Shown: piece after piece, positions 1-13,138 of the stretch
How positions within the stretch are numbered: the first letter of the stretch is position 1
Layout: each line of letters opens with the position of its first letter
Origin: Roseibacillus sp.
Lineage (GTDB): Bacteria; Verrucomicrobiota; Verrucomicrobiia; Verrucomicrobiales; Akkermansiaceae
NCBI GenBank assembly: GCA_051251855.1
Contig: JBPOGI010000002.1
Coordinates: 749,605 to 813,604 of the forward strand
Direction of reading: 5' to 3'
DNA length: 64,000 nucleotides
The notes under the pieces: model-generated
The model's database searches: none
The model's input: only the letters and a program-made list of their open reading frames with translations
What the model was told of the DNA's origin: nothing
Made by a program: the position numbers and the translations under genes

Positions 1-383
1 GCTTCTTTGGTATCGGGAGTGAACTCGTCGCCGAGTCCTTTTTCGAGAGTGTCGAGGAGGGCTGCTCCTACCGTCTCGTAATGCTCTGCTTTGACGCCGT
101 AGCCAACATGGCGTTTACCAAGGCTTTGGACAGCTGGGACAAGCTCGCCGAGGGTGTCGAGCCCCTTGACGGCAGCCCCGATCATTTGCATGAGCTTCTT
201 GCCCTGTTCCTCCATGTTCGAGTCGGCAAACATCGGTTTTAAAGAGGGGTCGAGTTCGAAGAGTTTTCCGTAGAAGAGCTCTGCTGCGGTATCGGAGATA
301 GGCTTCACTTTCTCCCAGGATTCCTGGACGAGATTTTTCTGATGAAGGGTCAAAGGGCCTTCGGGTTCGGTTTCTTCTGGCAT
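1..383 (-). CDS. globin domain protein (flavohemoglobin/Vgb-like), 3' end runs off the window
   Basis: Not in ORF track. Manual translation from ATG at 383: MPEETEPEGPLTLHQKNLVQESWEKVKPISDTAAELFYGKLFELDPSLKPMF...EEQGKKLMQMIG...LGKRHVGYGVKAEHYETVGAALLDTLEKGLG. B10 Tyr, CD1 Phe, E7 Gln and F8 His pattern of bacterial 3/3 globins. Confidence 0.9.
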   Translation of the reverse strand, partial: MPEETEPEGPLTLHQKNLVQESWEKVKPISDTAAELFYGKLFELDPSLKPMFADSNMEEQGKKLMQMIGAAVKGLDTLGELVPAVQSLGKRHVGYGVKAEHYETVGAALLDTLEKGLGDEFTPDTKE

Positions 384-468
384 TGGTTTGGTTGGTTCTG
401 GTTTTGGGGGCTCAGTCGTGGAGCCGCCGAAGATTTTCTTAAAAAAGGAGATCATGATATGGAGAGAA

Positions 469-498
469 GGAGCCCGCCATTGGGGGCTGGAGGGCTCC
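469..498 (-). terminator. possible terminator hairpin after the cytochrome c5 gene
   Basis: GGAGCCC (469-475) / GGGCTCC (492-498) inverted repeat just downstream of the stop at 522; only a weak pyrimidine tail on the minus strand. Confidence 0.4.
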
Positions 499-521
499 GT
501 TGGTTAATTGTTTCGAGGAGG

Positions 522-914
522 CTACTTTGGAGTTGCCAACATATAGTTGACGGCATTGGTCACTTCTTCGTCGGTGAGACTGGGGGTGCCTCCGCGAGCA
601 GGCATCTCGCCATCGGGTCCTTGAAAGCCGTTGATGGCGTGATCAAGGAGAACGGCGAGTCCCTTCTCGGACCGAGTTTCCCATTCTTCCGCTTTCGCAA
701 GGGAAGGGGCTCCTTCCTCTCCTTCGTCGTGGCATCCCGAGCATTCGATCTGGTAGATCGCTCGTCCGGCAAGGAGGTCAGGATCGGAGGGGATCCAATC
801 CCACGGGTGCTCGGGCTTGATTTCCTTTTCAGTTTCAGCTGCTTCCTCTGGCGAGGATTTACAGGAGGAAAGGAAGGCGAGGCTGAAGCAGGAGAGGAGA
901 AGAAATGGCTTCAT
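522..914 (-). CDS. cytochrome c5-family lipoprotein
   Basis: Lipobox FLSS-C, single CSGCH, c5-like 'LLDHAINGF...MPARGG...AVNYM'. Confidence 0.85.
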   Translation of the reverse strand: MKPFLLLSCFSLAFLSSCKSSPEEAAETEKEIKPEHPWDWIPSDPDLLAGRAIYQIECSGCHDEGEEGAPSLAKAEEWETRSEKGLAVLLDHAINGFQGPDGEMPARGGTPSLTDEEVTNAVNYMLATPK

Positions 915-938
915 TATCCAAAGTATCCAGGTGAATTG

Positions 939-1574
939 TTAAGAGGTGGGGATACGGATGACGATACCTCCCATGACGTCGTTCTTCTTAAACTCTGGGT
1001 AGTCTGGTTGGCGGTTTTCGTGGTTGTTGTGGCATTCCCAACAAGCAGGAGCGACGGCTTTGTCGGGATAGATTCCAACAAAGTATTCTTGTCCGCCAAT
1101 CTCTTCGAGTGCAGTCCACTTCTTTCCGTAATAATCGCTGGCAGGGTCGGATACCTCAGCGAGACCTTTCTCTACGGCAGGAGTTTTCTTCTTGGCGTTC
1201 TCCATGTTGAGGGGCCAAGTCGACTGAAGAGAGTAGGAGAAGTCAAAGGGCTTGCCTTCGACGGAGTCTACTTCTTCTGCGCCTTCGCGGAACATTTGAG
1301 CAGGGAGGAGGAGGGCTTTTTCTTCGGCCCATTCTTCGTGTGCTTTGATGACCTTCTCATCTCTCACGAGACGGTTGACGATCTTGGTCGCGTAGACTTT
1401 GCGGTCTGACTTGAGCACGATATAGAGCGCTTCGGCGACGGCTTCGGCATCGTAGCCTCCATCGGAGCCGCTGCTGGCTTCTGAGTCTCCGGACTTACAG
1501 GAAGCAAGTGCGAAGGCGAGGGTGGTGGTGCCGGCGATCCATGTGGGGCCGATCCATCTTTTATTCATTTTCAT
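939..1574 (-). CDS. DUF3365/Tll0287-like monoheme cytochrome c lipoprotein
   Basis: Start moved to ATG 1574 (or 1568), overlapping the upstream stop. Lipobox ALAS-C; C-terminal AVAPACWECH...DVMGGIVIRIP typical of this domain. Confidence 0.75.
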   Translation of the reverse strand: MKMNKRWIGPTWIAGTTTLAFALASCKSGDSEASSGSDGGYDAEAVAEALYIVLKSDRKVYATKIVNRLVRDEKVIKAHEEWAEEKALLLPAQMFREGAEEVDSVEGKPFDFSYSLQSTWPLNMENAKKKTPAVEKGLAEVSDPASDYYGKKWTALEEIGGQEYFVGIYPDKAVAPACWECHNNHENRQPDYPEFKKNDVMGGIVIRIPTS

Positions 1575-3030
1575 TTGGTAGTTTGGTTTGTTCTTCTTCG
1601 GGTGGGGTCGGGGTGGAACCGGCCTGTTCTTCTGAGGGAGATTCGAGGAATTTCTTGAGAGCGATAATCTCTTCGTTACCGCGCTCAATAGCGGCATCGA
1701 CGGTCCAGCTGATGCCGGGGTGCTCAATGGTGGGATGGCTGGCGAAGTTGCTCTTGATGAGCTTTTGGTCGGCGAGCGCGTTCATGGAGAATTGGAGTCC
1801 GTGGCAGTCCATGCAGACATTGCGCAACATCTTCTCGTTGGGAGTGAGGTTGGCGTTCTGGTTGTGATTGACGACGACTTGGCCCTCGCGCTCCTCGCGT
1901 GGCATGTGGCAGGTGGCGCAAGAGACTCCGGTGTTCTCTTCACCGGTGCCGGCGAGTTCGGCGAGCCAGAGTCGTGAGTGACCAGAGTTCAAGTAGTTCT
2001 TACTATGGTCGTCGTCGTGGCATTGAAGGCAGGCTTGTTGGGAGGCGAATTGACGGTCGTAGTTGTGGGGCTGATGGCAAGAGGAGCAAGAGAGGTCGCG
2101 ATGTGCCGAGGAGGATTTCATAGGGCGTCGAGCTTGCTCGGGGGTCATCCCGGAGAGGCTTTGAGCGAGTCTCATGCCGTGCTTGCCTTTGAGGAAGTCG
2201 GTGACTTCGGGCTCGTGGCAGCTTTGGCAGGAGGAGTGGTCGGGGGATGGGACCCACGCACCGGTGGTGGGATGGTCGTGGCAGTCTGAGCAGTTTACTC
2301 CTGCGTTGGCGTGGGCGGTGTGTTCCCAGCTGTCGTTAATGGATTGGTTGGTGAGTTGGGGGGCGGGAGCATCGGCGGTGGCGATAGTGAGGGGTTCACG
2401 CTTCTTATTTCCTTCGTCGAGCCACTTTTGCAGGGCATCGGCTTCGAGGAGGGTGCTTTCTGGAAGGAAGTCAGCTTCACCATAGTGCTTGAGGAGGAAG
2501 CTGGGGGCTAAGGCAACGTTGTCGTGGTAGTTGTGGCAGCCAGAGTCGGCGCAGGAATTGAAGGGGAGGAAGCGATGTGAATCGAGGTTGTCGAGGGTGA
2601 CTTGATGGCAGTGGGCGCAGTAGTCAGGGGGGAGAGTTACGCCCATTTCGTGGGTGATTTTTTCGTTGTGCTCGGCGTGGCAGGCGACGCAGCTCATGGC
2701 GTCCACGTGCTCAAGGTAGATGTGGTTGTCGGGGTTCTTAAACTTGCGGGTGGGGTGGGAGTCGCTGAAAGCGGTGAGGTCCTCGCCGTGGCAGTTGATA
2801 CAGGCTGAGCTGGGGACGCCGGAGGAGGTGAAAATATTCTCGCTTTCTTCGTCTGTGTGGCAGGCGGCGCAGGCAAGCTCGATTTGGTAATGGCCGTGAG
2901 TGGTCTTGCCTGGGAGGAGGACGGTTTTGTCTTCGGCCCTGAGAAGGATGTGGCTCAACCACGCAGAAAGGCCCACTGTGACGATGAGCCAGAGTAGGAT
3001 GCTTTTTCGTTTTTGAATCCAATGAGCCAC
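1561..3030 (-). CDS. membrane-anchored multiheme cytochrome c (10 CxxCH + 1 Cx4CH)
   Basis: N-terminal hydrophobic helix; motifs CAACH, CINCH, CVACH, CAHCH, CADSGCH, CSDCH, CQSCH, CSSCH, CLQCH, CATCH, CMDCH; no CxxCK. Confidence 0.9.
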   Translation of the reverse strand: MAHWIQKRKSILLWLIVTVGLSAWLSHILLRAEDKTVLLPGKTTHGHYQIELACAACHTDEESENIFTSSGVPSSACINCHGEDLTAFSDSHPTRKFKNPDNHIYLEHVDAMSCVACHAEHNEKITHEMGVTLPPDYCAHCHQVTLDNLDSHRFLPFNSCADSGCHNYHDNVALAPSFLLKHYGEADFLPESTLLEADALQKWLDEGNKKREPLTIATADAPAPQLTNQSINDSWEHTAHANAGVNCSDCHDHPTTGAWVPSPDHSSCQSCHEPEVTDFLKGKHGMRLAQSLSGMTPEQARRPMKSSSAHRDLSCSSCHQPHNYDRQFASQQACLQCHDDDHSKNYLNSGHSRLWLAELAGTGEENTGVSCATCHMPREEREGQVVVNHNQNANLTPNEKMLRNVCMDCHGLQFSMNALADQKLIKSNFASHPTIEHPGISWTVDAAIERGNEEIIALKKFLESPSEEQAGSTPTPPEEEQTKLPNENE

Positions 3031-3038
3031 GAAGTTTT

Positions 3039-5051
3039 TTAGTAAAGGTAGACCGAGAGAATGTGGAAGGTGAGGAGCACGGGGAGGGGCCAGAAGAGAA
3101 TGAGGTGCGCGTAGGTGAGGGCGGGGCGGAAGCGTCTGGCGGTGAGGGCAGCCTTGGAATTACCGGCGCTTTCGATGGCTGCGACGACTCCAGCAAGGGC
3201 TCCTAGTAGATTGAGAGCTACGAAAGTGAACATGAGCCAGAAGTTTAGGTTGTGACCGAAGCGGAATCCGGTGTGAACGAACAATGCCAAGAGGGCAATG
3301 ATGCCGAAGGCGGTATGAAAGACCCTCCAGTAGGCGAAGTGGCCAAAGCGAAACCACTTGATGCGCTTGCGAAGTGAGAGGAGAAGCCCAATCAGGAAGA
3401 TGCCCATGAGGGTGTATCCGGTAATCTGCTTGATGACGCCGTCGCGCCAAAATTGGTCGACTTGATACCACCATGATGCGACTGAGTCGGCCATCGCTGG
3501 TGGGGGAGCAAAGATAGTGATGAGGACGGCAAGGAGAGCAAGAATGGAGAGGGCGAGAAGGGCGCGTGCTCCCTTGGGTTTCGAAACGACGGGGGCTCCG
3601 CAAAGTTCATCTAGGAGAGGTTCGCAGGAACCGCAAACGGTGGACGCGCTGGTCTGGGCGGCGAGAAGTTTGGGGTCGTTCTTGCACTTAGCGAGGCAGG
3701 CGACGAGCTGCCCCTTGTTGACTCCCATGCAGTTGCAAACGATGCGCTCGTCGGGCCATTGGGCGACCGGTGTTTCGCCGCCACCTGGTTGGAGGACACC
3801 TTCGGCGGCGAAGTAGTCTTCTTCCTTCTTCTTGATGAATTGTCCCTCGGCATAGAGAGATTGGATTTTTCCACCTTCAGGCCAGTCGCCTACTCCAAGG
3901 CCGCCTTTGAGTTCTCCCTTGGGTCCTAAGATGAGCATGCGGTAGAGATCGTCGGTGGAGAACTCGACGCGTCGGCCTTCTTCGAGGGGGTCGCCAATGG
4001 TGATGACGTCTACCCCGAGCATTTTAAGTCGAGTGGAAAGGTCAGGAGTGGGGAAGGGGGCGATCTTTTGCCCTTCGAGGCGCGCGATGAGGTGGCGGGC
4101 CATGGCGTAGCCCGGAGCGGCGAGGCCATAGATGTTTCCATCGAGGAGGGCGCATTCACCGATGGCGAAGATATTGTCTTCGCTGGTCTCGAAGTGGTCG
4201 TTGACGACGATGCCTCCGCGGAGACCTGTCTCTAATCCGGAGTTTTTGGCAAGCTCGCTATTGGGGGTGATACCGGCGGAGATGACGACGAGGTCGCAGT
4301 CGAGGGGATCGCCTTTGTCGAAGACGAGCCTGAGTTGTTCGCCGGTGTCCTCGATGGTGGTAGAGCCTTTGCCTAGGTAGAGTCCGATGCCTTGCTCTGT
4401 AATGGATTTTTGAAGGAGAGTGGATGCGGTTTCGTTGAGTTGGCGGGGCATCAAGAACGAGGCTCGCTCGACGACGTCTGCTTTGAGTCCCAGTTTTTGA
4501 ATGGCTTGAGCGGCTTCGAGACCGAGGAGTCCACCCCCGACGACTGCGGCTTTGGATTTACCCTTGGAGGCTGAAATAATGGACTTGAGGTCGACTATAT
4601 TGCGGTAGAGGAAAACGTTGGGATGGTCACCGCCGGGAATGGGAGGGACGAAGGGGCGTGAGCCGGTGGCGAAGACGAGGATGTCGTAGTTGTGCTTGGT
4701 TTCATCCGAAAGGGTGACGCACTTGAGCTTGGGGTCGACTGCGACGACTTCGGTGCTAGTGAGGAGGGTAATTCCTTTTTCCTGATACCACTCTTCGCTG
4801 TTGAAGATGAGCTGGCTGGCATCCTTGTGGTCAACGTAGGTTGAGAGGTTGATGCGGTCGTAGGCGGGGAGAGGTTCTTTGCCGACGACGGTAATCTCCA
4901 GGTTAGGGAAAATCTTCGATTGGGTGAAATACTCACAGAGCTTTCCTCCGACCATGCCGTTGCCAATCACCAAGAGGCGAGAACCTTTGGGCAACGCCTG
5001 GCGGCGGCTTGCCTTCTTGTTCTTGGATTGACCTTGAAAGGCGGACTTCAC
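3039..5051 (-). CDS. NirB-like NAD(P)H/FAD oxidoreductase + BFD-type [2Fe-2S] + C-terminal His-rich membrane domain
   Basis: VIGNGMVG, ATGSRPF, VGGGLLGLEAA, AIGECA (NirB N-terminal half); CNC...CGSC cluster motif; about 5 C-terminal TM helices with two His pairs 14 residues apart; no siroheme/4Fe-4S domain. Confidence 0.85.
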   Translation of the reverse strand: MKSAFQGQSKNKKASRRQALPKGSRLLVIGNGMVGGKLCEYFTQSKIFPNLEITVVGKEPLPAYDRINLSTYVDHKDASQLIFNSEEWYQEKGITLLTSTEVVAVDPKLKCVTLSDETKHNYDILVFATGSRPFVPPIPGGDHPNVFLYRNIVDLKSIISASKGKSKAAVVGGGLLGLEAAQAIQKLGLKADVVERASFLMPRQLNETASTLLQKSITEQGIGLYLGKGSTTIEDTGEQLRLVFDKGDPLDCDLVVISAGITPNSELAKNSGLETGLRGGIVVNDHFETSEDNIFAIGECALLDGNIYGLAAPGYAMARHLIARLEGQKIAPFPTPDLSTRLKMLGVDVITIGDPLEEGRRVEFSTDDLYRMLILGPKGELKGGLGVGDWPEGGKIQSLYAEGQFIKKKEEDYFAAEGVLQPGGGETPVAQWPDERIVCNCMGVNKGQLVACLAKCKNDPKLLAAQTSASTVCGSCEPLLDELCGAPVVSKPKGARALLALSILALLAVLITIFAPPPAMADSVASWWYQVDQFWRDGVIKQITGYTLMGIFLIGLLLSLRKRIKWFRFGHFAYWRVFHTAFGIIALLALFVHTGFRFGHNLNFWLMFTFVALNLLGALAGVVAAIESAGNSKAALTARRFRPALTYAHLILFWPLPVLLTFHILSVYLY

Positions 5052-5062
5052 TCTTTGAGTTG

Positions 5063-5079
5063 AGCATTCGGGTAACCAA
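5063..5079 (-). promoter_or_regulatory. sigma54-like -24/-12 element upstream of the redox operon
   Basis: Minus strand TTGGTTACCCGAATGCT (GG-N10-GC); GC lies 13 nt before the GTG start. Confidence 0.55.
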
Positions 5080-5127
5080 TAGTTTGGAGCTTGCTTCGAT
5101 TCTTTAGGAAAGTGGGACCCCGAAAGA

Positions 5128-5142
5128 ATGAGTTTTGTTAAT
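5128..5142. promoter_or_regulatory. degenerate ATGA-N7-TCAT box
   Basis: ATGAGTTTTGTTAAT (1 mismatch), 51 bp from the GG element as in the other promoters. Confidence 0.5.
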
Positions 5143-5175
5143 GCTCTATTTCGCTCCTGAAAATCGCGGAAATGG

Positions 5176-5190
5176 ATGATTGGATTTCAT
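5176..5190. promoter_or_regulatory. ATGA-N7-TCAT box (LysR-type T-N11-A)
   Basis: ATGATTGGATTTCAT, perfect half-sites. Confidence 0.6.
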
Positions 5191-5385
5191 GAGAGGTGGC
5201 CTTGGTTGATCGTCACTTTGATGGGCACTATCTCCGACTGCGCTCCCCTCGGTGATGATGGCTCGAGGGAGCGAGTGTCTCTTATACGCGAGTGTGAATT
5301 TGGTCGTCTCGACTGGATGAGTAGGGCTTCTATCCAATTGGACTCAGACTCACTGACTAGAGGGCTGTGCTACTTGTTAAGTGAC

Positions 5386-5415
5386 AAAAAAACTCCGACG
5401 AATGAATCGTCGGAG
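5386..5415 (-). terminator. rho-independent terminator after nrtB-like gene
   Basis: CTCCGACGA-atgaa-TCGTCGGAG perfect 9-bp stem; A7 at 5386-5392 gives the U-tract on the minus strand. Confidence 0.85.
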
Positions 5416-5447
5416 CTTTGAGAAGAGAAAAAACTTGAGACCTACGT

Positions 5448-7082
5448 CTAGGCGGTGGCGGAACCGTCATCGAAGGAGACGAGGCGTTGGAGTATAATCA
5501 TCAAGCGGTCGAGGAAGAATCCAATGACTCCTACCACGAAGCAGGCGAGGATGATGTTGGCAAAGGATTGTGAGGAGCCATTTTGATATTCGTCCCAGAC
5601 ATACTTGCCGAGTCCGTCGGATGAGGAAAGGGCTTCAGCGGCGATGAGGACCATCCAGCCCACTCCGAGTGAGATGCGCAGGCCGGCGAAGACAAGCGGA
5701 AGGGAGGAGGGAATGACGATTTTGAAAAGGCGGGACCAGAAGCCGAGCTTGAGAACCTTGGCGACATTGAGGTGGTCTTTATCGATGGCAGAAACGCCGA
5801 GCGCGGTGTTGACCAACGCAGGCCAGAGGGCGCACATAGCAACGGTGCAGGCCGAGAAGATCATGGCGGGGTTGGTTTGCAGAAAAGACAAGGGGTTGAG
5901 GGAGTCGTTCATGAAAACGAAGAGGGGATGGCTCGCTGGATCGGGGAGGAAAAAGGCGCCGACGATGATTTGGAAAATAAGGAGCCAAACGACCGGTGAT
6001 ACTGGGCGGAAGATTGAAATGAGAGGCGTCATGGAAGCCATGAAGATACGATTGAGTCCGCACATGATACCGAGAGGAATGGCTACGACAGCGGCAATGA
6101 GGAACCCTACGAAGACGGTGGCGATAGAGCGCTTAGTCTGCCAAAAAATGGTAGCGGTGCGAGGGTAGGTTTGTTCGCTCGTGCTGGCAGCGCGTTCGCT
6201 GTTTTTGACGACAGACTTCGCTTCTTTGAGGGCTTCTTTTCCAGTAGCAGCGGCGGCGAGTTGCTGGGTGTCTTCTTTGGCCTTGGCGATGAGGGTTGCT
6301 TCTTTGACGCTGCGGTTTCCAGTAGTGAGAATGTCGATGAGCTTCTTGTAGTGCTGCACTTCGTCGGCTACCTTGTTCGTTGCGAGTTGAGATGATTTGA
6401 CCTCTTCAGGAGGGTTGTCTCGAATGAGGTCGAGCTCGTCTTTAAGCAGGGTTTCTGCATTTTTTTCCTTCTCTTCGAAGGCGGTGCTTTCTTTCACGAG
6501 AGCGATGAGTTTTTCAGGGGATGCTTCCTTCAGCGCGACCTTTTCTGCGAGGGTTTCTAAGGCGAGGTCTCGAGCGTCTTCGGCGGCATTATTCTTCGCC
6601 TTGATGGCATCATAGCGAGCTTGCACGGGGGCGAGCTTGGCGTTCATTTCTTCCTTGGAGGAGGCTGCGATTTCGACTGCCTTTTTTTGGAGCTTGGCTT
6701 GCTCGGCTTCGAGGGTGATGAGTTCTTTCTTGGCGCGTTCGATTTCTTCCAACCGTGGCTTGCCAGTGAGGCCGAAGGCGTTCTCCTTCTCGTTCTCGCG
6801 CTCATTAAAACGTCGGGCGTCGTTGAACGCGGTGCTGACGGCAGCTGGACCGGGGACTTCGCCGGACTTGGTCTTCAGTTTAGTGATGACGGTGGCCCAG
6901 ATGAAGATGAGAATGGAAACAAAGACGATAGGAACGACCATGTATTGGGCGATGTCTTTGACTTGTTTCTGAGGCTCCTCGCCAAAGAGGAGTCTAACGG
7001 GCGGGTCGAGAACCTTAAAGCCGCTGACATCGATGACCTTGAGAATTCCGTATTTGATTTTGTCCTTGGGTGAGTCTGACAT
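5448..7082 (-). CDS. nrtB: nitrate/nitrite ABC transporter permease (NrtB family) with long coiled-coil insertion
   Basis: Start moved to ATG 7082 (MSDSPK). C-terminal NrtB motifs FRPVSPVVW, LVNTALGV, GLRISLGVGWMVLIAAE, GLGKYVWDEYQNG. Confidence 0.85.
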   Translation of the reverse strand: MSDSPKDKIKYGILKVIDVSGFKVLDPPVRLLFGEEPQKQVKDIAQYMVVPIVFVSILIFIWATVITKLKTKSGEVPGPAAVSTAFNDARRFNERENEKENAFGLTGKPRLEEIERAKKELITLEAEQAKLQKKAVEIAASSKEEMNAKLAPVQARYDAIKAKNNAAEDARDLALETLAEKVALKEASPEKLIALVKESTAFEEKEKNAETLLKDELDLIRDNPPEEVKSSQLATNKVADEVQHYKKLIDILTTGNRSVKEATLIAKAKEDTQQLAAAATGKEALKEAKSVVKNSERAASTSEQTYPRTATIFWQTKRSIATVFVGFLIAAVVAIPLGIMCGLNRIFMASMTPLISIFRPVSPVVWLLIFQIIVGAFFLPDPASHPLFVFMNDSLNPLSFLQTNPAMIFSACTVAMCALWPALVNTALGVSAIDKDHLNVAKVLKLGFWSRLFKIVIPSSLPLVFAGLRISLGVGWMVLIAAEALSSSDGLGKYVWDEYQNGSSQSFANIILACFVVGVIGFFLDRLMIILQRLVSFDDGSATA

Positions 7083-7109
7083 AGCGAAGCTGTGAGCTGG
7101 CCGAACTCT

Positions 7110-7126
7110 TGCAGCCCTCGGGCCAA
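7110..7126 (-). promoter_or_regulatory. sigma54-like -24/-12 element upstream of nrtB
   Basis: Minus strand TTGGCCCGAGGGCTGCA. Confidence 0.65.
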
Positions 7127-7173
7127 GTGGCGGAGTTGGGCTGAGAATTTTGAGAAGAGATGAACTCGACTCC

Positions 7174-7188
7174 ATGAATTTGATTCAT
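7174..7188. promoter_or_regulatory. ATGA-N7-TCAT box upstream of nrtB
   Basis: ATGAAT-TTG-ATTCAT palindrome; the 18-mer CATGAATTTGATTCATGA differs at one base from the copy at 13123-13140. Confidence 0.75.
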
Positions 7189-7201
7189 GAATTTTTCCGT
7201 T

Positions 7202-8089
7202 TTACGGTTTTTGAATGATAATACGGAAGCCGATGTTGTAGCTACGGCTTTCGGGGCCAGAGCTGTAGCGGTAGGCTGACCGGCAGCTATTGGCGGTTCG
7301 GTTCCAAGTTCCCCCGCGAATATTTCTACCGTCACCTGTTTCGGGGCCTTGGGGATCGTTCCCGCCGCTGGCTTTCTCGGAATACCAGTCGGCACACCAT
7401 TCGTAGAGGTTGCCGTGCATGTCGTAGAGTCCCCATGCGTTGGGTTCGAAGCTTTTTACCTCGGTCGTTTTTTCGCGGTACTCGCCTTCTTCAGTGAGAC
7501 CGTAGGGCTTCTTGCCATAGAAGTTTGCTTGTTCAGCGCTGAGGGTGTTACCGAATGAGAAGACGGTGCGCGTGCCTGCGCGGCAGGCGTATTCCCATTG
7601 GGCTTCGGTGGGGAGGGTGTAGGCGAGTTCCTTTGGAAGAACTCCGGACTCGTGTTCAGTTTGGGTAAGGATCTTGGCAAAGGAGATGGCGTCTGACCAG
7701 TTGACGAAGCTCATGGGTTGATTGGGTCCTATTGCTGAAGCTTCTGCGACCAAGTTAGCTCCGCGCCCGATAGGGCCTTCTTTGATGTCGATTTGCTGTT
7801 GGATGGTCTTTCCCATGACGGCGAGCCATTGTCCTTGCGTAATCTCGGATTCAGACATGAGGAAGTTCTGCGAAATTTTCACGGAGACTTCGTCTTCGTC
7901 GTTGCCACGGCCTTTTTCCGTTTCGGGGCTGCCCATTACAAATTCGCCGGCAGTGATGGGGAGCATTTTGAGGCCGATGCTGTTGTTGTAGGGTTCGGTG
8001 AGAAGTCTTTCGTCAGCAAGAGAAGTATGGGTGCCGAGAGCGAGGGTTACCACGGCGAGAAAGGGGAGGGGCCAGAGTTTTTGCTGCAT
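7202..8089 (-). CDS. secreted FGE-sulfatase (SUMF1/NirV-like) domain protein
   Basis: Signal peptide; LPTEAQWEYACRAG, NAWGLYDMHGNLYEWC, RGGTW, IGFR. Confidence 0.85.
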   Translation of the reverse strand: MQQKLWPLPFLAVVTLALGTHTSLADERLLTEPYNNSIGLKMLPITAGEFVMGSPETEKGRGNDEDEVSVKISQNFLMSESEITQGQWLAVMGKTIQQQIDIKEGPIGRGANLVAEASAIGPNQPMSFVNWSDAISFAKILTQTEHESGVLPKELAYTLPTEAQWEYACRAGTRTVFSFGNTLSAEQANFYGKKPYGLTEEGEYREKTTEVKSFEPNAWGLYDMHGNLYEWCADWYSEKASGGNDPQGPETGDGRNIRGGTWNRTANSCRSAYRYSSGPESRSYNIGFRIIIQKP

Positions 8090-8103
8090 TATGGGAGGAT
8101 GAG

Positions 8104-8120
8104 AGCAGAAAGAGAACCAA
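8104..8120 (-). promoter_or_regulatory. sigma54-like -24/-12 element upstream of FGE-domain gene
   Basis: Minus strand TTGGTTCTCTTTCTGCT; only an ATGA half-site (8168) lies 50 bp upstream. Confidence 0.45.
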
Positions 8121-8170
8121 GGAGCACGAAGGCAGCTTTTGATTCACGAGTGGAATTACTTTAAACTATG

Positions 8171-8208
8171 AAACAAAAAGACCGTCTGGAGATGAACTCC
8201 AGACGGTC
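8171..8208 (-). terminator. rho-independent terminator after nrtA-like gene
   Basis: GACCGTCTGGAG-atgaa-CTCCAGACGGTC perfect 12-bp stem followed on the minus strand by TTTTTGTTT. Confidence 0.85.
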
Positions 8209-8233
8209 AAATAACCAGGATAAGTTGTTTCGA

Positions 8234-9595
<1,362 letters not shown>

Positions 9596-9602
9596 TGTTT
9601 GG

Positions 9603-10679
9603 TTAGTTTTCTTTGACTCCTGGAACGGAGGTTGAGAGTTGTTCTTGGGCTTGCTCGAAGAGGTCCATGCGGAAGATGAAGTCGTTGGGGAGCTGTTGCC
9701 CTTTTCTAAGAAGTCCCGAGAGGCGGACTCCTTCGCGCAGCCACGAAGCTGTCTTGCTAGTGGGAGCGTTGACTTCCTTGTCGTGAAAGATGTGAAAGTC
9801 GGGAAAGGACTTTTCGGGGTTTCCACTGGTGGCAGGAAGGCGACCCAAGAGGCTGAAGGGGAGGGAATCTTGGATAAGGTTCATTCCGGGTTCGGCTGAG
9901 AGGTAAGTGAGAACTTCGTTGTGATTGCTTGGATTCTGGCAATACTGGCAGGCTTCCAAGAGGGCGCTAGTGAGGGATCGGAGCTCGTTAGGATGGCTTT
10001 CAGCAAAGCTGAGAGTGGCAGCGAGTACTTTCTCGGGGTGGCCGTTAGAGAGTTCTATCGAGTTGGAAACGCACCAGCCGATTCCTTGCATCATGGCCAC
10101 CGAGTTCCAAGGTTCGCCCACACAGCAGCCGTCAATATGACCGTGGGAAAGACTACGAATCATGATTTCTGGTGGAAGAGAAATGATTTCGACGAAGGGG
10201 TGTTTTGCAATTCCATTTCGCTTGAGCCACAGGAGAAGGAGCGAGTGATGTGAAGAGCAGGGATGCACGGAGGCGAGGGTGAGGGGGGACTCCTTGCTGT
10301 AGTTTTCTTCGATGAAAGCTAGGAATTCTCCAGGCTTATCGAACATGTCACGGGGAATCTTATTAGAGAGGGTAAGGCCGTTACCGTTGGCGCTAAGCAC
10401 GAGGGGAACGACCATTTCTTTGGGGATTGTGCCGACGCCGTGATGGATGGCGAGGGCGAGAGGTCCGAGGCATTGGGCTGCGTCGAGCTCGGCGTGAACG
10501 AGTTTTTCGCGAACGGTGGCCCAGCCTGGCTCTTGGGAGGTGACAACGTTGACACCATGCTTTGCAAAGAGTCCCTTCTCTCGAGCAACGATGATCGGAG
10601 CGCAGTCAATGAGGGGGATATACCCCAATCGGATTGGCTGGTTAGTGATTGTGAGAAGGTTGGAATCAGGTGAAACCAT
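9603..10679 (-). CDS. cytoplasmic NrtA-like nitrate/nitrite sensor (NasS-like)
   Basis: [26 protein letters not shown]; no signal peptide or lipobox. Confidence 0.75.
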
Positions 10680-10690
10680 GCCGTTCTCTC

Positions 10691-10707
10691 AGCCGGAGTC
10701 GTGCCAA
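10691..10707 (-). promoter_or_regulatory. sigma54-like -24/-12 element upstream of NasS-like gene
   Basis: Minus strand TTGGCACGACTCCGGCT (consensus TGGCAC); GC lies 13 nt before the ATG. Confidence 0.65.
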
Positions 10708-10755
10708 ATGGCAAAAATGGCATATTTGGTGCTATGGGAAAGTATCTCAACAATG

Positions 10756-10770
10756 ATGAACCCCATTCAT
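10756..10770. promoter_or_regulatory. ATGA-N7-TCAT box overlapping the lysR start codon
   Basis: ATGAACCCCATTCAT in the divergent intergenic region; typical LysR autoregulatory position. Confidence 0.7.
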
Positions 10771-11728
10771 GTACCGTGAATTACCAGACCTGCGCCAAGT
10801 AAGAGCCTTTGTGGCGCTTGCAGATACCCAGTCCTTTACGCGGGCGGCTGAGACTTTATTTTTGACGCAGTCGGCGGTAAGCCATTCGATTCGCAGTCTT
10901 GAGCAGCAACTGGAGGTTCAGTTGGTGGAACGTTCGGGCAAGAAAATTGCTCTCACGCAGGACGGAGTTGTTTTTCTTCGACGTTGTCGTTCAGTGATTA
11001 GCGAGTTGGAGCAAGCCACCCAAGAAATGGAGGCGCTTAAGCGTTGGGGCCAAGGCAGAATTCGATTAGGGGCGACCCACACGCTTTGCCAGTATCTCTT
11101 GCCGACAGTGCTGCGGGAGTTTCGCGATTGTTTTCCACGTTGTGAAGTTCACATCGAGTCGGGCGACACGGCGGAACTCATGCAAAAGCTTGAGGATGCT
11201 CAGCTCGATTTGGTTTTGGGGTTAGGTGGTCGCACACCCAACTGGGCCGCTTTTCTCCCCGTGTTCGATGATGAGCTGGTTTTCGTGGTGTCCGCGCAGC
11301 ACCCTTGGGCGAACAAAGTAGAGATTCCTTTGGAGGAAATTGGCAGCGAGTCTTTTCTAATTTATGCGAAGAAGAGTGAGACCTATCGGCTCATTCGCAA
11401 TCACTTCGAGGGTCTTGGCGTCAAGCTAAGGACCACGCTCAACCTAGGTGCGATGGAGGCCATTAAAGAAATGGCACGTATTGGAATTGGGGTTGGGATC
11501 GTTTCGCCTTGGGTGGCTCGAAAGGAATTGGAGCGAGGTCAACTCGTGCAGGTTCCCATTCGAAAGGAGCCTCTCACCAGGGAGTGGGGGGTCTTTTGTC
11601 ACGAGAGTAAGAAGCTTTCATTGGTCGAAGATACTTTCGTGGGAATCTGTGAGGTGACGGCTCGGACCTTCAATGCTTCACCAACGGCCCCAACTGAAAA
11701 AGCCGTCGACCTTGCGGCGACGGCTTAG
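10769..11728 (+). CDS. LysR-family transcriptional regulator
   Basis: HTH SFTRAAETLFLTQSAVSHSIRSLE...LTQDG followed by a substrate-binding domain. Confidence 0.95.
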   Translation: MYRELPDLRQVRAFVALADTQSFTRAAETLFLTQSAVSHSIRSLEQQLEVQLVERSGKKIALTQDGVVFLRRCRSVISELEQATQEMEALKRWGQGRIRLGATHTLCQYLLPTVLREFRDCFPRCEVHIESGDTAELMQKLEDAQLDLVLGLGGRTPNWAAFLPVFDDELVFVVSAQHPWANKVEIPLEEIGSESFLIYAKKSETYRLIRNHFEGLGVKLRTTLNLGAMEAIKEMARIGIGVGIVSPWVARKELERGQLVQVPIRKEPLTREWGVFCHESKKLSLVEDTFVGICEVTARTFNASPTAPTEKAVDLAATA

Positions 11729-11751
11729 AGTCAGTTGTTAGAGGAGGTTTC

Positions 11752-13038
11752 TTAGAACTTGTAAGAGAGGTCGACAGTGACTTGCTTGATATCAGCATAG
11801 GCGCTGCTCTCGTCTCCGAAGAAGTAGGCCGCTTTGATGAGACCTGACAGGTTGTCAGTGAATTTCTTCGCCAAGATGAGGTCTGCTTCGTAGCCGTATG
11901 TTGCGCTGAAGCTGTCATCGGCAAAGTAGTGAAGGAAGCCTTTGAGAGTGACGCCTCCAGGAAGCCCGGGCTGCACGAGGCCTAGATATACATCTGAAAG
12001 ACCTTCGTAAGTTCCTCCAGGTCCATTGCGAAGTCCAATGCGGTCGAGGATGAACGCATCCGCAAATCCGTTGTAGGCGTGAACGGTCGCGAAGGGGGTT
12101 TTGAAGTCGTCTTCAAGATACTCAAGTCCGGCAATGAGGGAGGTTTTACCCACTTTATGGGTATATTTTACGTGCCCGTAGAAGGCTTCGTAATCACCTC
12201 CAACTGTGCTGGTCCCGTCTTGAAAAGCTATTTCTCCATAGAGCCCACCGATTGTTGCGAAGGCACCGTAGGTGTTGCTCTCGCCGACGTTGGTGTTGTT
12301 GTCGACGTCAATGAGATATGCGTATCCACCGACGGTTCCAAAGTCAGCGTTGTAGGTGCCGTCAATGAAGTGGAAGTCACCCTCGAAATCATGGAGAGGA
12401 GGTCCGGGCAGAGCGTCATTGGCATCATTTCCGAAGATACGTTGCACGCGATTGGAGTAGGCATATGAGAGCGAGAAGTCGTCGTTCTTGTAGGCGATTT
12501 GGGCTGCGTCGAAGGTCTGTTCGTTCTGACGCCAGCCGACGTTACCAATGAAAGCGGCGCTGTTGCGAATGATGCGTTGGCGTCCTACTTTGGCGAGAAA
12601 GCCATCTTGCTTGTATTGAACCCACGCACGGTTGAGTTCTGCGTTCTGAGGGTCGCCGATGGGGGTGTTACCTGATACGTAAGGGTAAGTTGACCGACTG
12701 AATGGATTGCCGCTAGGAAGAGGGTTACTGGAGTAATCAGCCACTCCTGCGCCGGTGAACTCTCCTTCGGCGAAGGCGCTGAATCCGCCGAAGTCGCCGA
12801 GAAGGAGGCCAACTCGTGCCCTAGCGGTGAGAGCGTTTGAGGGGTCGAGGCCGTCAACTTCGCGGAACTCATACCGAGTATTGAGATTGACGCTTGGGGT
12901 AAGCCATTTGAAGGCATCCGGTTCGGAAGCTACGACAGGCTGCTCAGGAATATCGACGAAAGTCTCGCCTGCAAAAGCTGGAGAAGAGAGGCTAAGCGCA
13001 AGAGTGCAGCGACAAATATATGGATGGATAGTTTTCAT
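11752..13038 (-). CDS. alginate-export-family outer membrane porin
   Basis: Start moved to ATG 13038. Signal peptide; GRQRI...FIGNVGWRQNEQTFDA; FATVHAYNGFAD; C-terminal YKF. Confidence 0.8.
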   Translation of the reverse strand: MKTIHPYICRCTLALSLSSPAFAGETFVDIPEQPVVASEPDAFKWLTPSVNLNTRYEFREVDGLDPSNALTARARVGLLLGDFGGFSAFAEGEFTGAGVADYSSNPLPSGNPFSRSTYPYVSGNTPIGDPQNAELNRAWVQYKQDGFLAKVGRQRIIRNSAAFIGNVGWRQNEQTFDAAQIAYKNDDFSLSYAYSNRVQRIFGNDANDALPGPPLHDFEGDFHFIDGTYNADFGTVGGYAYLIDVDNNTNVGESNTYGAFATIGGLYGEIAFQDGTSTVGGDYEAFYGHVKYTHKVGKTSLIAGLEYLEDDFKTPFATVHAYNGFADAFILDRIGLRNGPGGTYEGLSDVYLGLVQPGLPGGVTLKGFLHYFADDSFSATYGYEADLILAKKFTDNLSGLIKAAYFFGDESSAYADIKQVTVDLSYKF

Positions 13039-13058
13039 ATGATGGTCCGAGAACAGGA

Positions 13059-13075
13059 AGCGTTTGCGGTGCCAT
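13059..13075 (-). promoter_or_regulatory. sigma54-like -24/-12 element upstream of porin
   Basis: Minus strand ATGGCACCGCAAACGCT. Confidence 0.65.
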
Positions 13076-13123
13076 CGAGGTGAAGAAGAGTGTTGGTGAC
13101 GGGTAAAGTGTTTCCATCGACTC

Positions 13124-13138
13124 ATGATTTTGATTCAT
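13124..13138. promoter_or_regulatory. ATGA-N7-TCAT box upstream of porin
   Basis: ATGATTTTGATTCAT within TCATGA-N7-TCATGA. Confidence 0.75.

What the first reader, a model, noticed from the sequence alone, without database searches (positions are those of the whole stretch)
522..5051. Candidate NADH-to-periplasm electron conduit: NirB-half/diheme-b fusion + 11-heme cytochrome + two heme lipoproteins inside a nitrate/nitrite locus
Seen: four tightly coupled genes (gaps of 8 and 24 bp, one overlap) with their own promoter. The first has NirB-like FAD and NADH motifs and a BFD [2Fe-2S] motif; an 11-heme cytochrome c, a DUF3365-like lipoprotein and a c5 lipoprotein follow. Known: assimilatory NirB reduces nitrite in the cytoplasm at a siroheme domain, which is absent here, while NrfA/NrfH-type periplasmic systems draw electrons from quinol. 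Inference: electrons flow NAD(P)H > FAD > 2Fe-2S > membrane b hemes > multiheme c > monoheme lipoproteins, bypassing quinones, to reduce nitrite, NO or another N-oxide outside the cytoplasm. I know no characterised system with this make-up, although homologs may exist under generic annotations.
Basis: partly seen in the sequence, partly recalled or inferred. Interest (0 to 1): 0.9.

Follow-up and report, generated by a model that had tools for sequence, protein, structure and literature searches.

The report
NADH-driven periplasmic haem chain with globin
A conserved, uncharacterised five-gene module in nitrate-assimilation loci appears to carry electrons from cytoplasmic NADH straight across the membrane to periplasmic haem proteins, probably to remove reactive nitrogen oxides, and is nearly always encoded with a globin.

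Summary
Window 522-5051 (minus strand) carries four tightly packed genes. The first is a 670-aa fusion of the NirB N-terminal half (FAD/NADH), a BFD [2Fe-2S] domain and a 5-helix membrane domain with four invariant histidines. The others are an 11-haem cytochrome c with a membrane anchor, a Tll0287/DUF3365 (sCache_heme) lipoprotein and a class-I cytochrome c lipoprotein. In 36 loci from four phyla the fusion and the 11-haem gene are adjacent in 36, the sCache_heme gene is present in 34, a globin in 29 and the small cytochrome c in only 13. In 400 sampled Verrucomicrobiota genomes the fusion and the 11-haem protein occur in the same 8. Nitrate-assimilation genes, NasT-type regulators and ANTAR-like leader hairpins surround the module. 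A complex model with controls supports docking of the cytochrome on the periplasmic face of the membrane domain. Four haems of the 11-haem protein's C-terminal core align with NrfA haems 2-5, but no open catalytic haem is evident. The electron-export anatomy is well supported. The substrate is inferred, with NO favoured over nitrite or hydroxylamine. My literature searches found no description of the module.

The parts
3039..5051 (-). FUS: 670-aa fusion protein (GTG start), NirB-type flavoprotein + BFD + membrane di-haem-b domain
   Evidence: ORF. Full-length homologues of about 640-690 aa. Domain hits.
4134..4979 (-). FUS aa 25-306: FAD and NAD(P)H Rossmann domains (GNGMVG at aa 30, GGGLLG at aa 172, invariant Glu195 at the end of the second beta strand)
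   Evidence: Pyr_redox_2 E 1.5e-55. NirB model positions 1-470 only. Motifs; invariants.
3603..3743 (-). FUS aa 437-483: BFD-like [2Fe-2S] domain, Cys439/441/473/476
   Evidence: Fer2_BFD E 4e-4. The four Cys are invariant in 63 of 63 sequences. The model matches P. aeruginosa Bfd: Foldseek prob 1.0, VIA Z 7.7, rmsd 2.2 over 51 residues.
3042..3569 (-). FUS aa 495-670: five predicted membrane helices. His579/His593 lie on helix 3 and His649/His663 on helix 5, the presumed ligands of two b haems.
   Evidence: Hydropathy. The four His are invariant in 13 of 13 and 63 of 63 sequences. AF2 pLDDT 92.8. No Pfam family. 586 representative clusters carry the domain; in the 150 listed rows it lies at the C-terminus, mostly of ~640-690-aa fusions.
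1561..3030 (-). MHC11: 489-aa undecahaem cytochrome c. It has an N-terminal membrane anchor (aa 11-29), five N-terminal c3/c7-type haems and a six-haem C-terminal core, four of whose haems align with NrfA haems 2-5.
   Evidence: hhalign against E. coli NrfA gives prob 94%. Profile hits to NrfA and octahaem nitrite reductases. VIA Z 6.4-6.9 to HAO/IhOCC.
939..1574 (-). TLL: 211-aa stand-alone sCache_heme (Tll0287/DUF3365) lipoprotein. One CxxCH, an invariant LPAQMF-R motif, and no Cys available as an axial ligand.
   Evidence: PF11845 at 51.8 bits. Start, lipobox and haem motif. Invariants from 35 sequences.
522..914 (-). CYTC: 130-aa class-I cytochrome c lipoprotein, an optional member of the module
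   Evidence: PF13442/PF00034. Lipobox LSSC, CSGCH and conserved Met104. Present in 13 of 36 related loci.
1..455 (-). GLOB: single-domain Hmp-type globin (173-aa ORF). Its 3' end runs 66 nt past the left edge of the window (G000:C6:749538-750059). There is no signal peptide and no reductase domain.
   Evidence: Globin PF00042 at 67.7 bits on the full ORF. It matches only positions 9-136 of the flavohaemoglobin model NF009805 and is that model's only match in the genome. Conserved Tyr62, Gln84 and His116.
5386..5419 (-). Terminator-like hairpin with a U-run directly after the nrtB stop, at the start of the 396-bp region upstream of FUS
   Evidence: Sequence. The RNA fold shows a 13-bp stem.
5448..10679 (-). 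Context: nrtB-like permease (5448-7175), FGE-sulfatase-domain protein (7202-8089), nrtA (8234-9826) and a NasS-like cytoplasmic NrtA paralogue (9603-10679). A divergent LysR gene lies at 10769-11728 (+).

Best explanation
The locus encodes a quinone-independent electron-export chain belonging to the nitrate-assimilation regulon. FUS oxidises NAD(P)H, probably NADH, in the cytoplasm. It passes electrons FAD > BFD [2Fe-2S] > inner b haem (His579/His649) > outer b haem (His593/His663) across the membrane. The membrane-anchored undecahaem MHC11 docks on the periplasmic face of FUS and carries the electrons through five c3-type haems into an NrfA-related six-haem core. From there they reach the sCache_heme lipoprotein TLL and, where present, a class-I cytochrome c. 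The co-encoded cytoplasmic globin has no reductase of its own and is probably kept reduced by the flavin/FeS part of FUS. The most likely job is removal by reduction of reactive N-oxides that arise during nitrate assimilation. NO is the first candidate, then nitrite or hydroxylamine. The haem chain would act in the periplasm and the globin, as an NO dioxygenase, in the cytoplasm. Moving electrons outward while protons are released inside and consumed outside spends membrane potential, which suits a protective or assimilatory role and not a respiratory one. Shown here: gene content, conservation, co-occurrence, context and a docking model. Inferred: cofactor binding, direction of flow, the globin's donor, and the substrate.
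For: Anatomy. FUS is the NirB N-half plus BFD without any sirohaem domain. Its C-terminal domain has 5 hydrophobic helices with Arg/Lys-rich loops on the side of the soluble domains. It has four His invariant in 63 of 63 homologues, spaced i/i+14 on two helices.

Docking. FUS C-terminal 241 aa plus MHC11 aa 1-215 plus 2 haems scored ipSAE 0.65 (runs 0.62-0.66) against a best control of 0.00. That mark was reached by 116 of 157 solved complexes and 2 of 215 mismatched pairs. The runs agree in at least 89% of contacts and the partner's pLDDT is at least 68. The counts hold only roughly because I used my own alignments and a ligand rode along. The interface comprises FUS loops 517-542 and 597-603, the helix end 654-670, the MHC11 anchor helix, and Cys54/His58 of haem 1.

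Conservation. FUS and MHC11 are adjacent in 36 of 36 loci. TLL is present in 34 of 36; one miss is a contig end. A globin is present in 29 of 36: 22 Hmp-type, 1 full flavohaemoglobin and 6 truncated globins. MHC11 was found in exactly the 8 of 400 sampled Verrucomicrobiota genomes that carry the full FUS C-terminal domain; one further genome, G048, gave only a weak partial match (E 1.5e-6).

Nitrogen context. nrtABC lies within 10 kb in 13 of 36 loci. NasT-type ANTAR regulators flank 9 loci. Tandem hexaloop hairpins occur in 8 of 35 FUS leaders against 44 of 4162 background windows. All 8 FUS-positive Verrucomicrobiota carry NrtA, against 33 of 350 sampled genomes.

Globin. Conserved Tyr62, Gln84 and His116; I read these from memory as the B10, E7 and proximal positions of Hmp/Vgb-type globins. 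The genome has no full flavohaemoglobin. The genome also has no NrfA, NirK or full NirB, but it does have a NirA-like gene.

Precedent. The Bradyrhizobium narK-bjgb-flp-nasC operon joins a globin and an NAD(P)H flavoprotein to nitrate assimilation for NO detoxification (PMC4724949; abstract and passages read).
Against: No experiment bears on this, and no RNA run was listed. No substrate-binding site has been identified. MHC11 has no CxxCK motif, and 12 conserved non-motif His are available for 11 haems, so every haem may be bis-His. The extra haem 9 sits where NrfA has its active-site loop region. The fold matches are middling: Z 6.4-6.9 for the cytochrome core, and Z 7.3-9.8 for the membrane bundle amid unrelated helix bundles. 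[quoted passage not shown] In two loci the truncated globin brings its own FNR-type reductase, so FUS need not be the globin's donor. Only 13 of 36 loci have nrt genes within 10 kb. The window's own leader has no ANTAR-like hairpins. Related genomes are not independent, so the enrichment figures overstate the case.
Confidence: 0.5

Rival explanations
1. MHC11 is itself a periplasmic ammonia-forming nitrite or hydroxylamine reductase, an NADH-fed NrfA/epsilon-Hao analogue. The module would scavenge external or leaked nitrite as ammonium for assimilation. TLL and CYTC would be side carriers.
For: The profile hits NrfA (1.8e-11) and octahaem nitrite reductases (3.6e-10). hhalign against E. coli NrfA gives prob 94%, with haems 7, 8, 10 and 11 aligned to NrfA haems 2-5 and His351 next to the NrfA His264 region. 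The best fold matches are HAO, IhOCC and the reducing HAO-like Kustc0458. The module sits in assimilation loci.
Against: No CxxCK motif. Pfam Cytochrom_C552 scores 22.8 bits, below the 24.1 cut-off. There are 12 conserved spare His for 11 haems. A haem replaces the region that forms NrfA's active-site loop. The carriers already hold NirA or NirB. This reading explains neither TLL in 34 of 36 loci nor the globin in 29 of 36.
Confidence: 0.2
2. The chain has no catalytic site of its own. It is an NADH:cytochrome c reductase that keeps periplasmic carriers (TLL, CYTC, other c-type cytochromes) reduced for separate enzymes such as NO reductase, cytochrome c peroxidase or an oxidase.
For: All haems may be six-coordinate. 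TLL-type stand-alone proteins look like redox carriers, with +123 mV reported for the P. putida protein. CYTC is an ordinary class-I cytochrome c with a Met ligand.
Against: No candidate terminal enzyme is co-conserved among the two flanking genes on each side of the 36 loci. This reading does not explain the tight link to nitrate assimilation or to a globin.
Confidence: 0.15
3. FUS mainly serves cytoplasmic partners, as an Flp-like NAD(P)H donor to the globin and/or the assimilatory nitrate reductase. The membrane and periplasmic parts would be an overflow or a sensing branch.
For: The Bradyrhizobium Flp precedent. The globin lacks a reductase and the genome has no Hmp. The N-terminal half also resembles NorW, E 1.8e-43.
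Against: The four His, the whole membrane domain and MHC11 are conserved and strictly co-occurring, which implies selection on the export branch. The module also occurs without a nearby nitrate reductase.
Confidence: 0.08
4. The module is a periplasmic ferric or other metal reductase (FRE/NOX-like) that supplies the iron needed by the iron-rich nitrate-assimilation enzymes.
For: The design, cytoplasmic NAD(P)H to two transmembrane b haems, is that of ferric reductases. The NOX5 membrane domain appears among the fold matches at Z 7.3.
Against: No Ferric_reduct Pfam hit. No iron-uptake genes among the conserved neighbours. The globin association is unexplained.
Confidence: 0.04

Closest known systems
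NirB, NAD(P)H-nitrite reductase large subunit (TIGR02374)
   Same: The N-terminal FAD/NAD(P)H domains and the BFD [2Fe-2S] domain match NirB model positions 1-470, E 6.7e-126.
   Different: The C-terminal [4Fe-4S]-sirohaem catalytic half is replaced by a five-helix membrane domain with four invariant His. The score is below the family cut-off (421.7 against 578.35).
Nrf system: NrfA with the NrfH or NrfBCD quinol-linked donors
   Same: A periplasmic multihaem chain with a membrane-anchored donor. MHC11 haems 7, 8, 10 and 11 align with NrfA haems 2-5. NrfA is known to handle nitrite, hydroxylamine and NO, and in Campylobacter it acts alongside the globin Cgb; both statements are recalled, not checked here.
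   Different: The donor is an NADH flavoprotein fused to b haems, not a quinol dehydrogenase. MHC11 has eleven haems, no CxxCK, and an extra haem where NrfA's active-site loop lies.
HAO / octahaem family (HAO, HDH, IhOCC, Kustc0457/0458)
   Same: These are the best structural matches to MHC11 aa 215-432: Z 6.4-6.9, 187-208 residues aligned, rmsd 3.6-4.0, 20-26% identity. Foldseek prob about 1.
   Different: TM-scores are only 0.25-0.30. The haem count and order differ. No catalytic haem or Tyr cross-link was identified.
NOX/FRE ferric-reductase-domain enzymes and di-haem cytochromes b (CybB, cytochrome b561)
   Same: Cytoplasmic NAD(P)H flavin feeds two stacked b haems held by two His pairs on two helices, giving one-way electron export across the membrane. 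Fold matches: CybB Z 9.7, b561 Z 7.9, NOX5 membrane domain Z 7.3.
   Different: The flavoprotein is of the pyridine-nucleotide-disulfide-oxidoreductase type, is N-terminal and adds a 2Fe-2S cluster. No PF01794 or other Pfam hit. The acceptor is a docked multihaem cytochrome, not O2 or Fe(III). Z-scores lie within the range of unrelated helix bundles.
Bradyrhizobium narK-bjgb-flp-nasC system (PMC4724949)
   Same: A single-domain globin and an NAD(P)H flavoprotein are encoded with nitrate-assimilation genes under NasS-NasT control and couple assimilation to NO detoxification.
   Different: That system is wholly cytoplasmic, with no membrane b-haem domain, multihaem cytochrome or sCache_heme protein. 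Homology of Flp to FUS was not tested.
Stand-alone sCache_heme (DUF3365/Tll0287) proteins, Cluster 1 (bioRxiv 10.64898/2026.02.01.703092)
   Same: TLL is a stand-alone PF11845 protein with the CxxCH motif. The paper proposes a redox role for this class.
   Different: The paper reports no informative gene association for the stand-alone class, and a text search of it for operon, neighborhood, nitrate, nitrite, multiheme and NirB found 0 occurrences. TLL has no Cys axial ligand, unlike Tll0287, and carries an invariant LPAQMF-R motif.

Membership tests
NirB (NADH-nitrite reductase large subunit) | N-terminal FAD/NAD(P)H domains plus BFD [2Fe-2S] | tested here: met
   TIGR02374 positions 1-470, E 6.7e-126. 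Pyr_redox_2 E 1.5e-55. Fer2_BFD at aa 437-483.
NirB (NADH-nitrite reductase large subunit) | C-terminal NIR_SIR [4Fe-4S]-sirohaem catalytic domain and a score above the family cut-off | tested here: not met
   No PF01077 or PF03460 hit on FUS. 421.7 bits against a cut-off of 578.35. Model positions 471-794 are unmatched.
Ferric reductase domain (NOX/FRE/MsrQ) superfamily | Two His pairs on two transmembrane helices, spaced 13 and 12-13 residues apart (the family's spacing is recalled from memory) | tested here: met
   His579/593 and His649/663, 13 residues between each pair, invariant in 63 of 63 sequences.
Ferric reductase domain (NOX/FRE/MsrQ) superfamily | Sequence or fold membership (PF01794; NOX-like six-helix domain) | tested here: inconclusive
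   No Pfam hit at E <= 0.01. NOX5 membrane domain Z 7.3 and DUOX1 Foldseek E about 2, both among unrelated helix bundles. Five helices are predicted, not six.
Bacterial cytochrome b561 / CybB type di-haem b | Four-helix di-haem bundle fold | tested here: inconclusive
   5oc0 Z 9.7, 128 residues aligned, rmsd 3.1, 13% identity. Talin rod domains score higher, up to Z 11.8. No Pfam hit.
NrfA (cytochrome c nitrite reductase) | Homologous haem core (haems 2-5) | tested here: met
   hhalign prob 94%, E 1.4e-7, MHC11 aa 264-411 against NrfA aa 156-319. Profile hits to NrfA structures.
NrfA (cytochrome c nitrite reductase) | CxxCK catalytic haem and a family-level score | tested here: not met
   No CxxCK in MHC11. 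PF02335 22.8 bits against 24.1, and NF008339 15.6 bits against 595.
HAO / octahaem cytochrome c family | Eight-haem fold with a five-coordinate catalytic haem | tested here: inconclusive
   VIA Z 6.4-6.9 over model aa 215-432. Haem coordination could not be read because model coordinates are not returned.
sCache_heme / Tll0287-like (PF11845) | Family score above cut-off, CxxCH motif, extracytoplasmic location | tested here: met
   51.8 bits against 24.1. CWECH at aa 178 and lipobox LASC.
sCache_heme / Tll0287-like (PF11845) | Cys/His axial ligation as in Tll0287 | tested here: not met
   The mature protein has no Cys outside the CxxCH motif. Met145, His236 and Met252 are conserved instead.
Flavohaemoglobin (Hmp) | Globin domain with the conserved Tyr62, Gln84 and His116 triad (assignment to the B10, E7 and proximal positions is recalled from memory) | tested here: met
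   PF00042 67.7 bits. Tyr62, Gln84 and His116 conserved in 23 sequences.
Flavohaemoglobin (Hmp) | Fused FNR-like FAD/NAD(P)H reductase domain | tested here: not met
   Only positions 9-136 of 399 of NF009805 are matched. 77.9 bits against a cut-off of 432.

The most novel reading that the evidence does not exclude
This is a previously unrecognised type of N-cycle enzyme system: a prokaryotic NOX-like exporter built from a NirB-type flavoprotein, a BFD cluster and two b haems. It would drive a periplasmic undecahaem/sCache_heme reductase directly from NADH. That would allow aerobic, ubiquinone-based bacteria to reduce NO, nitrite or hydroxylamine outside the cytoplasm, which quinol-dependent Nrf systems are not known to do in such organisms. 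[quoted passage not shown]
Probability: 0.3. Interest if true: 0.9.

Novelty: new variant of a known kind. Interest (0 to 1): 0.75.

Why it matters
The module is not rare. Of 400 other species genomes sampled per group, I found it in 8 Verrucomicrobiota, 23 Gammaproteobacteria and 5 Planctomycetota, and also in a betaproteobacterium. Sources annotate the parts only as 'FAD-dependent oxidoreductase', 'nitrite reductase large subunit' or 'cytochrome c3 family protein'. The 'nitrite reductase' and 'NrfA' names can mislead metagenomic nitrogen-cycle budgets. If the module works as inferred, it is a new way to power periplasmic redox chemistry from NADH without quinones. It would link nitrate assimilation to nitrosative-stress control on both sides of the membrane. 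It would also provide a testable function for stand-alone sCache_heme proteins, whose role a 2026 preprint left open. Cultured carriers exist, so the tests are practical: Roseibacillus persicicus, Luteolibacter spp., Haloferula helveola, Thiogranum longum and Noviherbaspirillum sedimenti.

Tried and rejected
- **Expression data:** no RNA holder was listed for window 1-7200, so expression and co-transcription stayed unchecked.
- **Rfam:** the scan of window 1-12000 at E <= 1 gave 0 matches.
- **Promoter:** the sigma-70 scan found no site upstream of FUS. Its only hit lies inside the TLL-CYTC junction, and the total is below the shuffle mean.
- **Earlier findings of this scan:** nothing near this place.
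- **Membrane domain, Foldseek against PDB:** no match at E <= 0.001 other than the BFD part. VIA-wide gave generic helix bundles, so no family was assigned.
- **ESM Atlas, MHC11 aa 200-445:** returned only the protein's own and generic multihaem clusters.
- **The search for related loci with the full-length alignment:** returned mostly true NirB loci. Only 5 of 80 covered the membrane domain. I switched to genome searches with the C-terminal 241 aa.
- **ANTAR-like hairpins:** none in the window's own leader.
- **Literature:** searches with terms for NirB/multihaem/nitrate assimilation/Verrucomicrobia, HAO-like/NADH/periplasm, multihaem/globin/FAD oxidoreductase/nitrate transporter, NasT/multihaem/globin, ferric-reductase-domain/NirB, and four carrier species names found no description of this module in the listings and abstracts I saw. 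Subscription journals are not covered.
- **Respiratory role:** I rejected a DNRA-type reading because outward electron export from NADH consumes membrane potential. This is inference.
- **Reverse flow:** I rejected periplasmic donor to NAD+ as thermodynamically uphill. This is inference.

Full report
**What is there.** The window is G000:C6:749605-813604 of a 4.96-Mb, 13-contig genome. The closest named relatives of its proteins are from Roseibacillus persicicus, with 79% identity for the fusion. All genes of interest lie on the minus strand, in this order:
- a NasS-like cytoplasmic NrtA paralogue (9603-10679)
- nrtA (8234-9826)
- an FGE-sulfatase-domain protein (7202-8089)
- an nrtB-like permease (5448-7175)
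- the four genes of the finding (5051-522)
- a globin (455 to beyond the window edge)
- two ABC ATPases
- several PSCyt/DUF15xx genes and a giant protein
- a NirA-like nitrite reductase, a flavodoxin, a 4Fe-4S/DmsC-like membrane fusion and a 764-aa molybdopterin oxidoreductase without a Tat signal

The module therefore sits inside a nitrate-assimilation super-locus, between nrtB and the nrt ATPase genes. The 'own promoter' is not demonstrated. There is a 396-bp gap that opens with a strong terminator-like hairpin after nrtB, but no sigma-70-like site.

**The fusion protein (FUS, 670 aa).** Residues 25-489 match the N-terminal half of NirB: model positions 1-470 of 794, E 6.7e-126, below the family cut-off. 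This half includes both Rossmann motifs and the BFD [2Fe-2S] domain. No sirohaem domain is present. Residues 495-670 have no Pfam family. Hydropathy gives five helices with Arg/Lys-rich loops on the cytoplasmic side. His579/His593 on helix 3 and His649/His663 on helix 5 are invariant in 13 of 13 and then 63 of 63 homologues, as are the four BFD cysteines. Each His pair is i/i+14, so one His of each helix lies near each membrane face. This is the classical geometry for two stacked b haems.

An AF2 model of residues 430-670 is confident (pLDDT 92.8). Its BFD part matches P. aeruginosa Bfd. The helical bundle matches only generically: a de novo two-haem protein at Z 9.8, E. coli CybB at Z 9.7, cytochrome b561 at Z 7.9 and the NOX5 membrane domain at Z 7.3, while talin rods score up to Z 11.8. 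I therefore do not assign the domain to a known cytochrome b family.

A full scan of 1.84 billion representative proteins found 586 clusters with this domain. In the 150 listed it is always C-terminal, mostly in proteins of about 640-690 aa; the shorter rows look like fragments. The fusion is thus the family's normal state.

**The undecahaem cytochrome (MHC11, 489 aa).** It has an N-terminal anchor helix and 11 haem motifs that use all 22 cysteines. All motifs are conserved in 28 sequences, except for a deletion at motif 6 in two rows.

The first five haems hit c3/c7 families. For the C-terminal six:
- A family profile hits NrfA and octahaem nitrite reductases.
- hhalign against E. coli NrfA gives 94% probability. 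Haems 7, 8, 10 and 11 align with NrfA haems 2, 3, 4 and 5.
- The AF2 model (pLDDT 74.5) best matches HAO, HDH, IhOCC and Kustc0458. Foldseek gives E 4e-4 to 1e-2 and TM 0.25-0.30; VIA gives Z 6.4-6.9 with 187-208 residues aligned.

Against an enzymatic reading, there is no CxxCK. Twelve further His are conserved for 11 haems. Haem 9 occupies the stretch where NrfA has no haem and which, from memory, forms its active-site loop. Whether one haem is open could not be settled, because model coordinates are not returned.

**The small proteins.**
- TLL is a stand-alone Tll0287/DUF3365 lipoprotein (PF11845, 51.8 bits). It has one CxxCH, no other cysteine, and an invariant LPAQMF-R motif.
- A 2026 preprint renames this family sCache_heme. 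It shows NO binding by a signalling member and redox-like behaviour (+123 mV, weak NO binding) in a stand-alone P. putida member, and it leaves the stand-alone class without a function or an informative gene context (abstract and sections 5, 7, 9, 10 and 14 read).
- CYTC is an ordinary class-I cytochrome c lipoprotein.
- The globin has conserved Tyr62, Gln84 and His116, which I read from memory as the B10, E7 and proximal positions of Hmp/Vgb-type globins. It has no signal peptide. It matches only the globin part of the flavohaemoglobin model and is that model's only match in the genome. It therefore needs an external reductase.

**Conservation.** I examined 36 loci. Four came from the search for related loci and 32 from genome searches with the C-terminal 241 aa. 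They cover Verrucomicrobiota, Planctomycetota, Gammaproteobacteria and one Betaproteobacterium.

| Feature | Loci with it |
|---|---|
| FUS followed directly by MHC11 | 36 of 36 |
| TLL present | 34 of 36 |
| A globin in or next to the module | 29 of 36 |
| CYTC present | 13 of 36 |

The two TLL misses are L007, which ends at a contig edge, and L141, a variant with a short MHC11. The 29 globins are 22 Hmp-type, one full 397-aa flavohaemoglobin and 6 truncated globins, two of which bring their own FNR-type reductase. The usual order is FUS > MHC11 > TLL > (CYTC) > globin.

Among other species genomes sampled per group, the domain was found in 8 of 400 Verrucomicrobiota, plus one weak partial match (G048, E 1.5e-6), in 23 of 400 Gammaproteobacteria and in 5 of 400 Planctomycetota. 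MHC11 was found in exactly the same 8 Verrucomicrobiota genomes and in no other. It holds only for the fourth.

**Link to nitrate.**
- nrtABC lies within the fetched 10 kb in 13 of 36 loci, and Nas/NirA genes in several more.
- Pfam on 101 unassigned flanking ORFs found NasT-type ANTAR regulators beside the module in 9 proteobacterial loci.
- Tandem hairpins with A..G.. hexaloops occur in 8 of 35 FUS leaders against 44 of 4162 background 300-nt windows. This form of ANTAR targets is recalled from memory. A near-identical second hairpin appears in five distant loci. The window's own leader has none.
- All 8 FUS-positive Verrucomicrobiota carry NrtA, against 33 of 350 sampled genomes.
- Related genomes are not independent, so these figures are indicative only.
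- The own genome has a NirA-like gene but no NrfA, NirK or full NirB. The module is therefore an accessory and not the only nitrite reductase.

**Do FUS and MHC11 touch?** A complex prediction used FUS 430-670, MHC11 1-215 and two haems. It scored 0.65 (three runs, 0.62-0.66) against a best control of 0.00. That mark was reached by 116 of 157 solved complexes and 2 of 215 mismatched pairs. The runs agree in at least 89% of contacts and the partner's pLDDT is at least 68. The calibration holds only roughly here, because I used my own alignments and a ligand rode along. The interface joins the two predicted periplasmic loops and the C-terminal helix end of FUS to the MHC11 anchor helix, the conserved segment after it, and Cys54/His58 of haem 1. 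This supports binding but does not show it.

**Most likely mechanism and rivals.** I read the module as an NADH-driven, quinone-independent electron export chain that serves N-oxide removal during nitrate assimilation. The globin would cover the cytoplasm. The Bradyrhizobium bjgb-flp-nasC system is the nearest functional precedent (PMC4724949). I put the conduit itself at about 0.8, an N-oxide role at about 0.55, and the full statement at 0.5.

The rivals are:
- MHC11 as an NADH-fed ammonifying nitrite or hydroxylamine reductase (0.2)
- a pure NADH:cytochrome c reductase for other enzymes (0.15)
- a mainly cytoplasmic Flp-like role (0.08)
- a metal reductase (0.04)

**Novelty.** Sources name these proteins only generically, or wrongly as nitrite reductase or NrfA. 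Six literature searches found no description of the module in the listings and abstracts I saw. A seventh, on Bjgb/Flp/NasC, retrieved only the Bradyrhizobium precedent, and the sCache_heme preprints came from a separate search on Tll0287/DUF3365. All the parts belong to known families. What appears new is the fusion and the conserved five-gene system.

Noticed in passing
L005:3-3808 (G000:C6, downstream of the window's left edge), and L097, L103, L104, L154: The presumed assimilatory nitrate reductase is a 764-aa molybdopterin enzyme without a Tat signal. It is paired with a 510-aa fusion of a 4Fe-4S dicluster domain and a DmsC/NrfD-like membrane anchor, and sits beside a flavodoxin and a NirA-like gene. 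A membrane-anchored, cytoplasm-facing Nas would be unusual. The pair recurs in four other loci.
   Followed up: partly
window 5448-7175: The nrtB-like permease is 575 aa, about twice the usual length. A roughly 250-aa Glu/Lys/Ala-rich, probably coiled-coil insert lies between the first helix and the permease core. Relatives in L097 and L098 are also long (464 and 510 aa).
   Followed up: no
window 7202-8089: An FGE-sulfatase (SUMF1-like) domain protein with a signal-like N-terminus is inserted between nrtA and nrtB. From memory, the nirK-linked NirV belongs to this domain family; I did not test this.
   Followed up: no
window 9603-11728: A NasS-like NrtA paralogue without a signal sequence lies next to a divergent LysR regulator. 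No NasT was found within the stretch I scanned (window 1-35669 and the 19 kb to its left). The same NasS-like/LysR pair occurs in L103 and L104.
   Followed up: partly
window 11752-13125; also L006, L045, L054, L097, L098, L100, L103, L104, L136, L143, L144: An Alginate_exp-family outer-membrane porin recurs beside the nrt genes or the module. It is possibly a nitrate/nitrite porin.
   Followed up: partly
L132:6515-7863 and L145:6175-7521: In two gammaproteobacterial loci the module is followed by a truncated globin and then a Fer2/FAD_binding_6/NAD_binding_1 reductase. This looks like a non-orthologous replacement of the Hmp-type globin.
   Followed up: partly
L141 (G801:C1:1625783-1645782): A variant locus has FUS with a short (362-aa) MHC11 and no TLL or globin. 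A NarJ-like chaperone (Nitrate_red_del) and a second pyridine-nucleotide oxidoreductase lie nearby. It still has the tandem hexaloop leader.
   Followed up: no
L131 / L105 (G573:C90): The FUS homologue is interrupted by one in-frame TAG, giving 553-aa and 125-aa ORFs. This could be a pseudogene, a sequencing error or a recoded stop.
   Followed up: no
window 456-521: A GC-rich inverted repeat (GGAGCCC...GGGCTCC) lies in the 66-bp gap between the cytochrome c gene and the globin. It may act as an attenuator or processing site.
   Followed up: no
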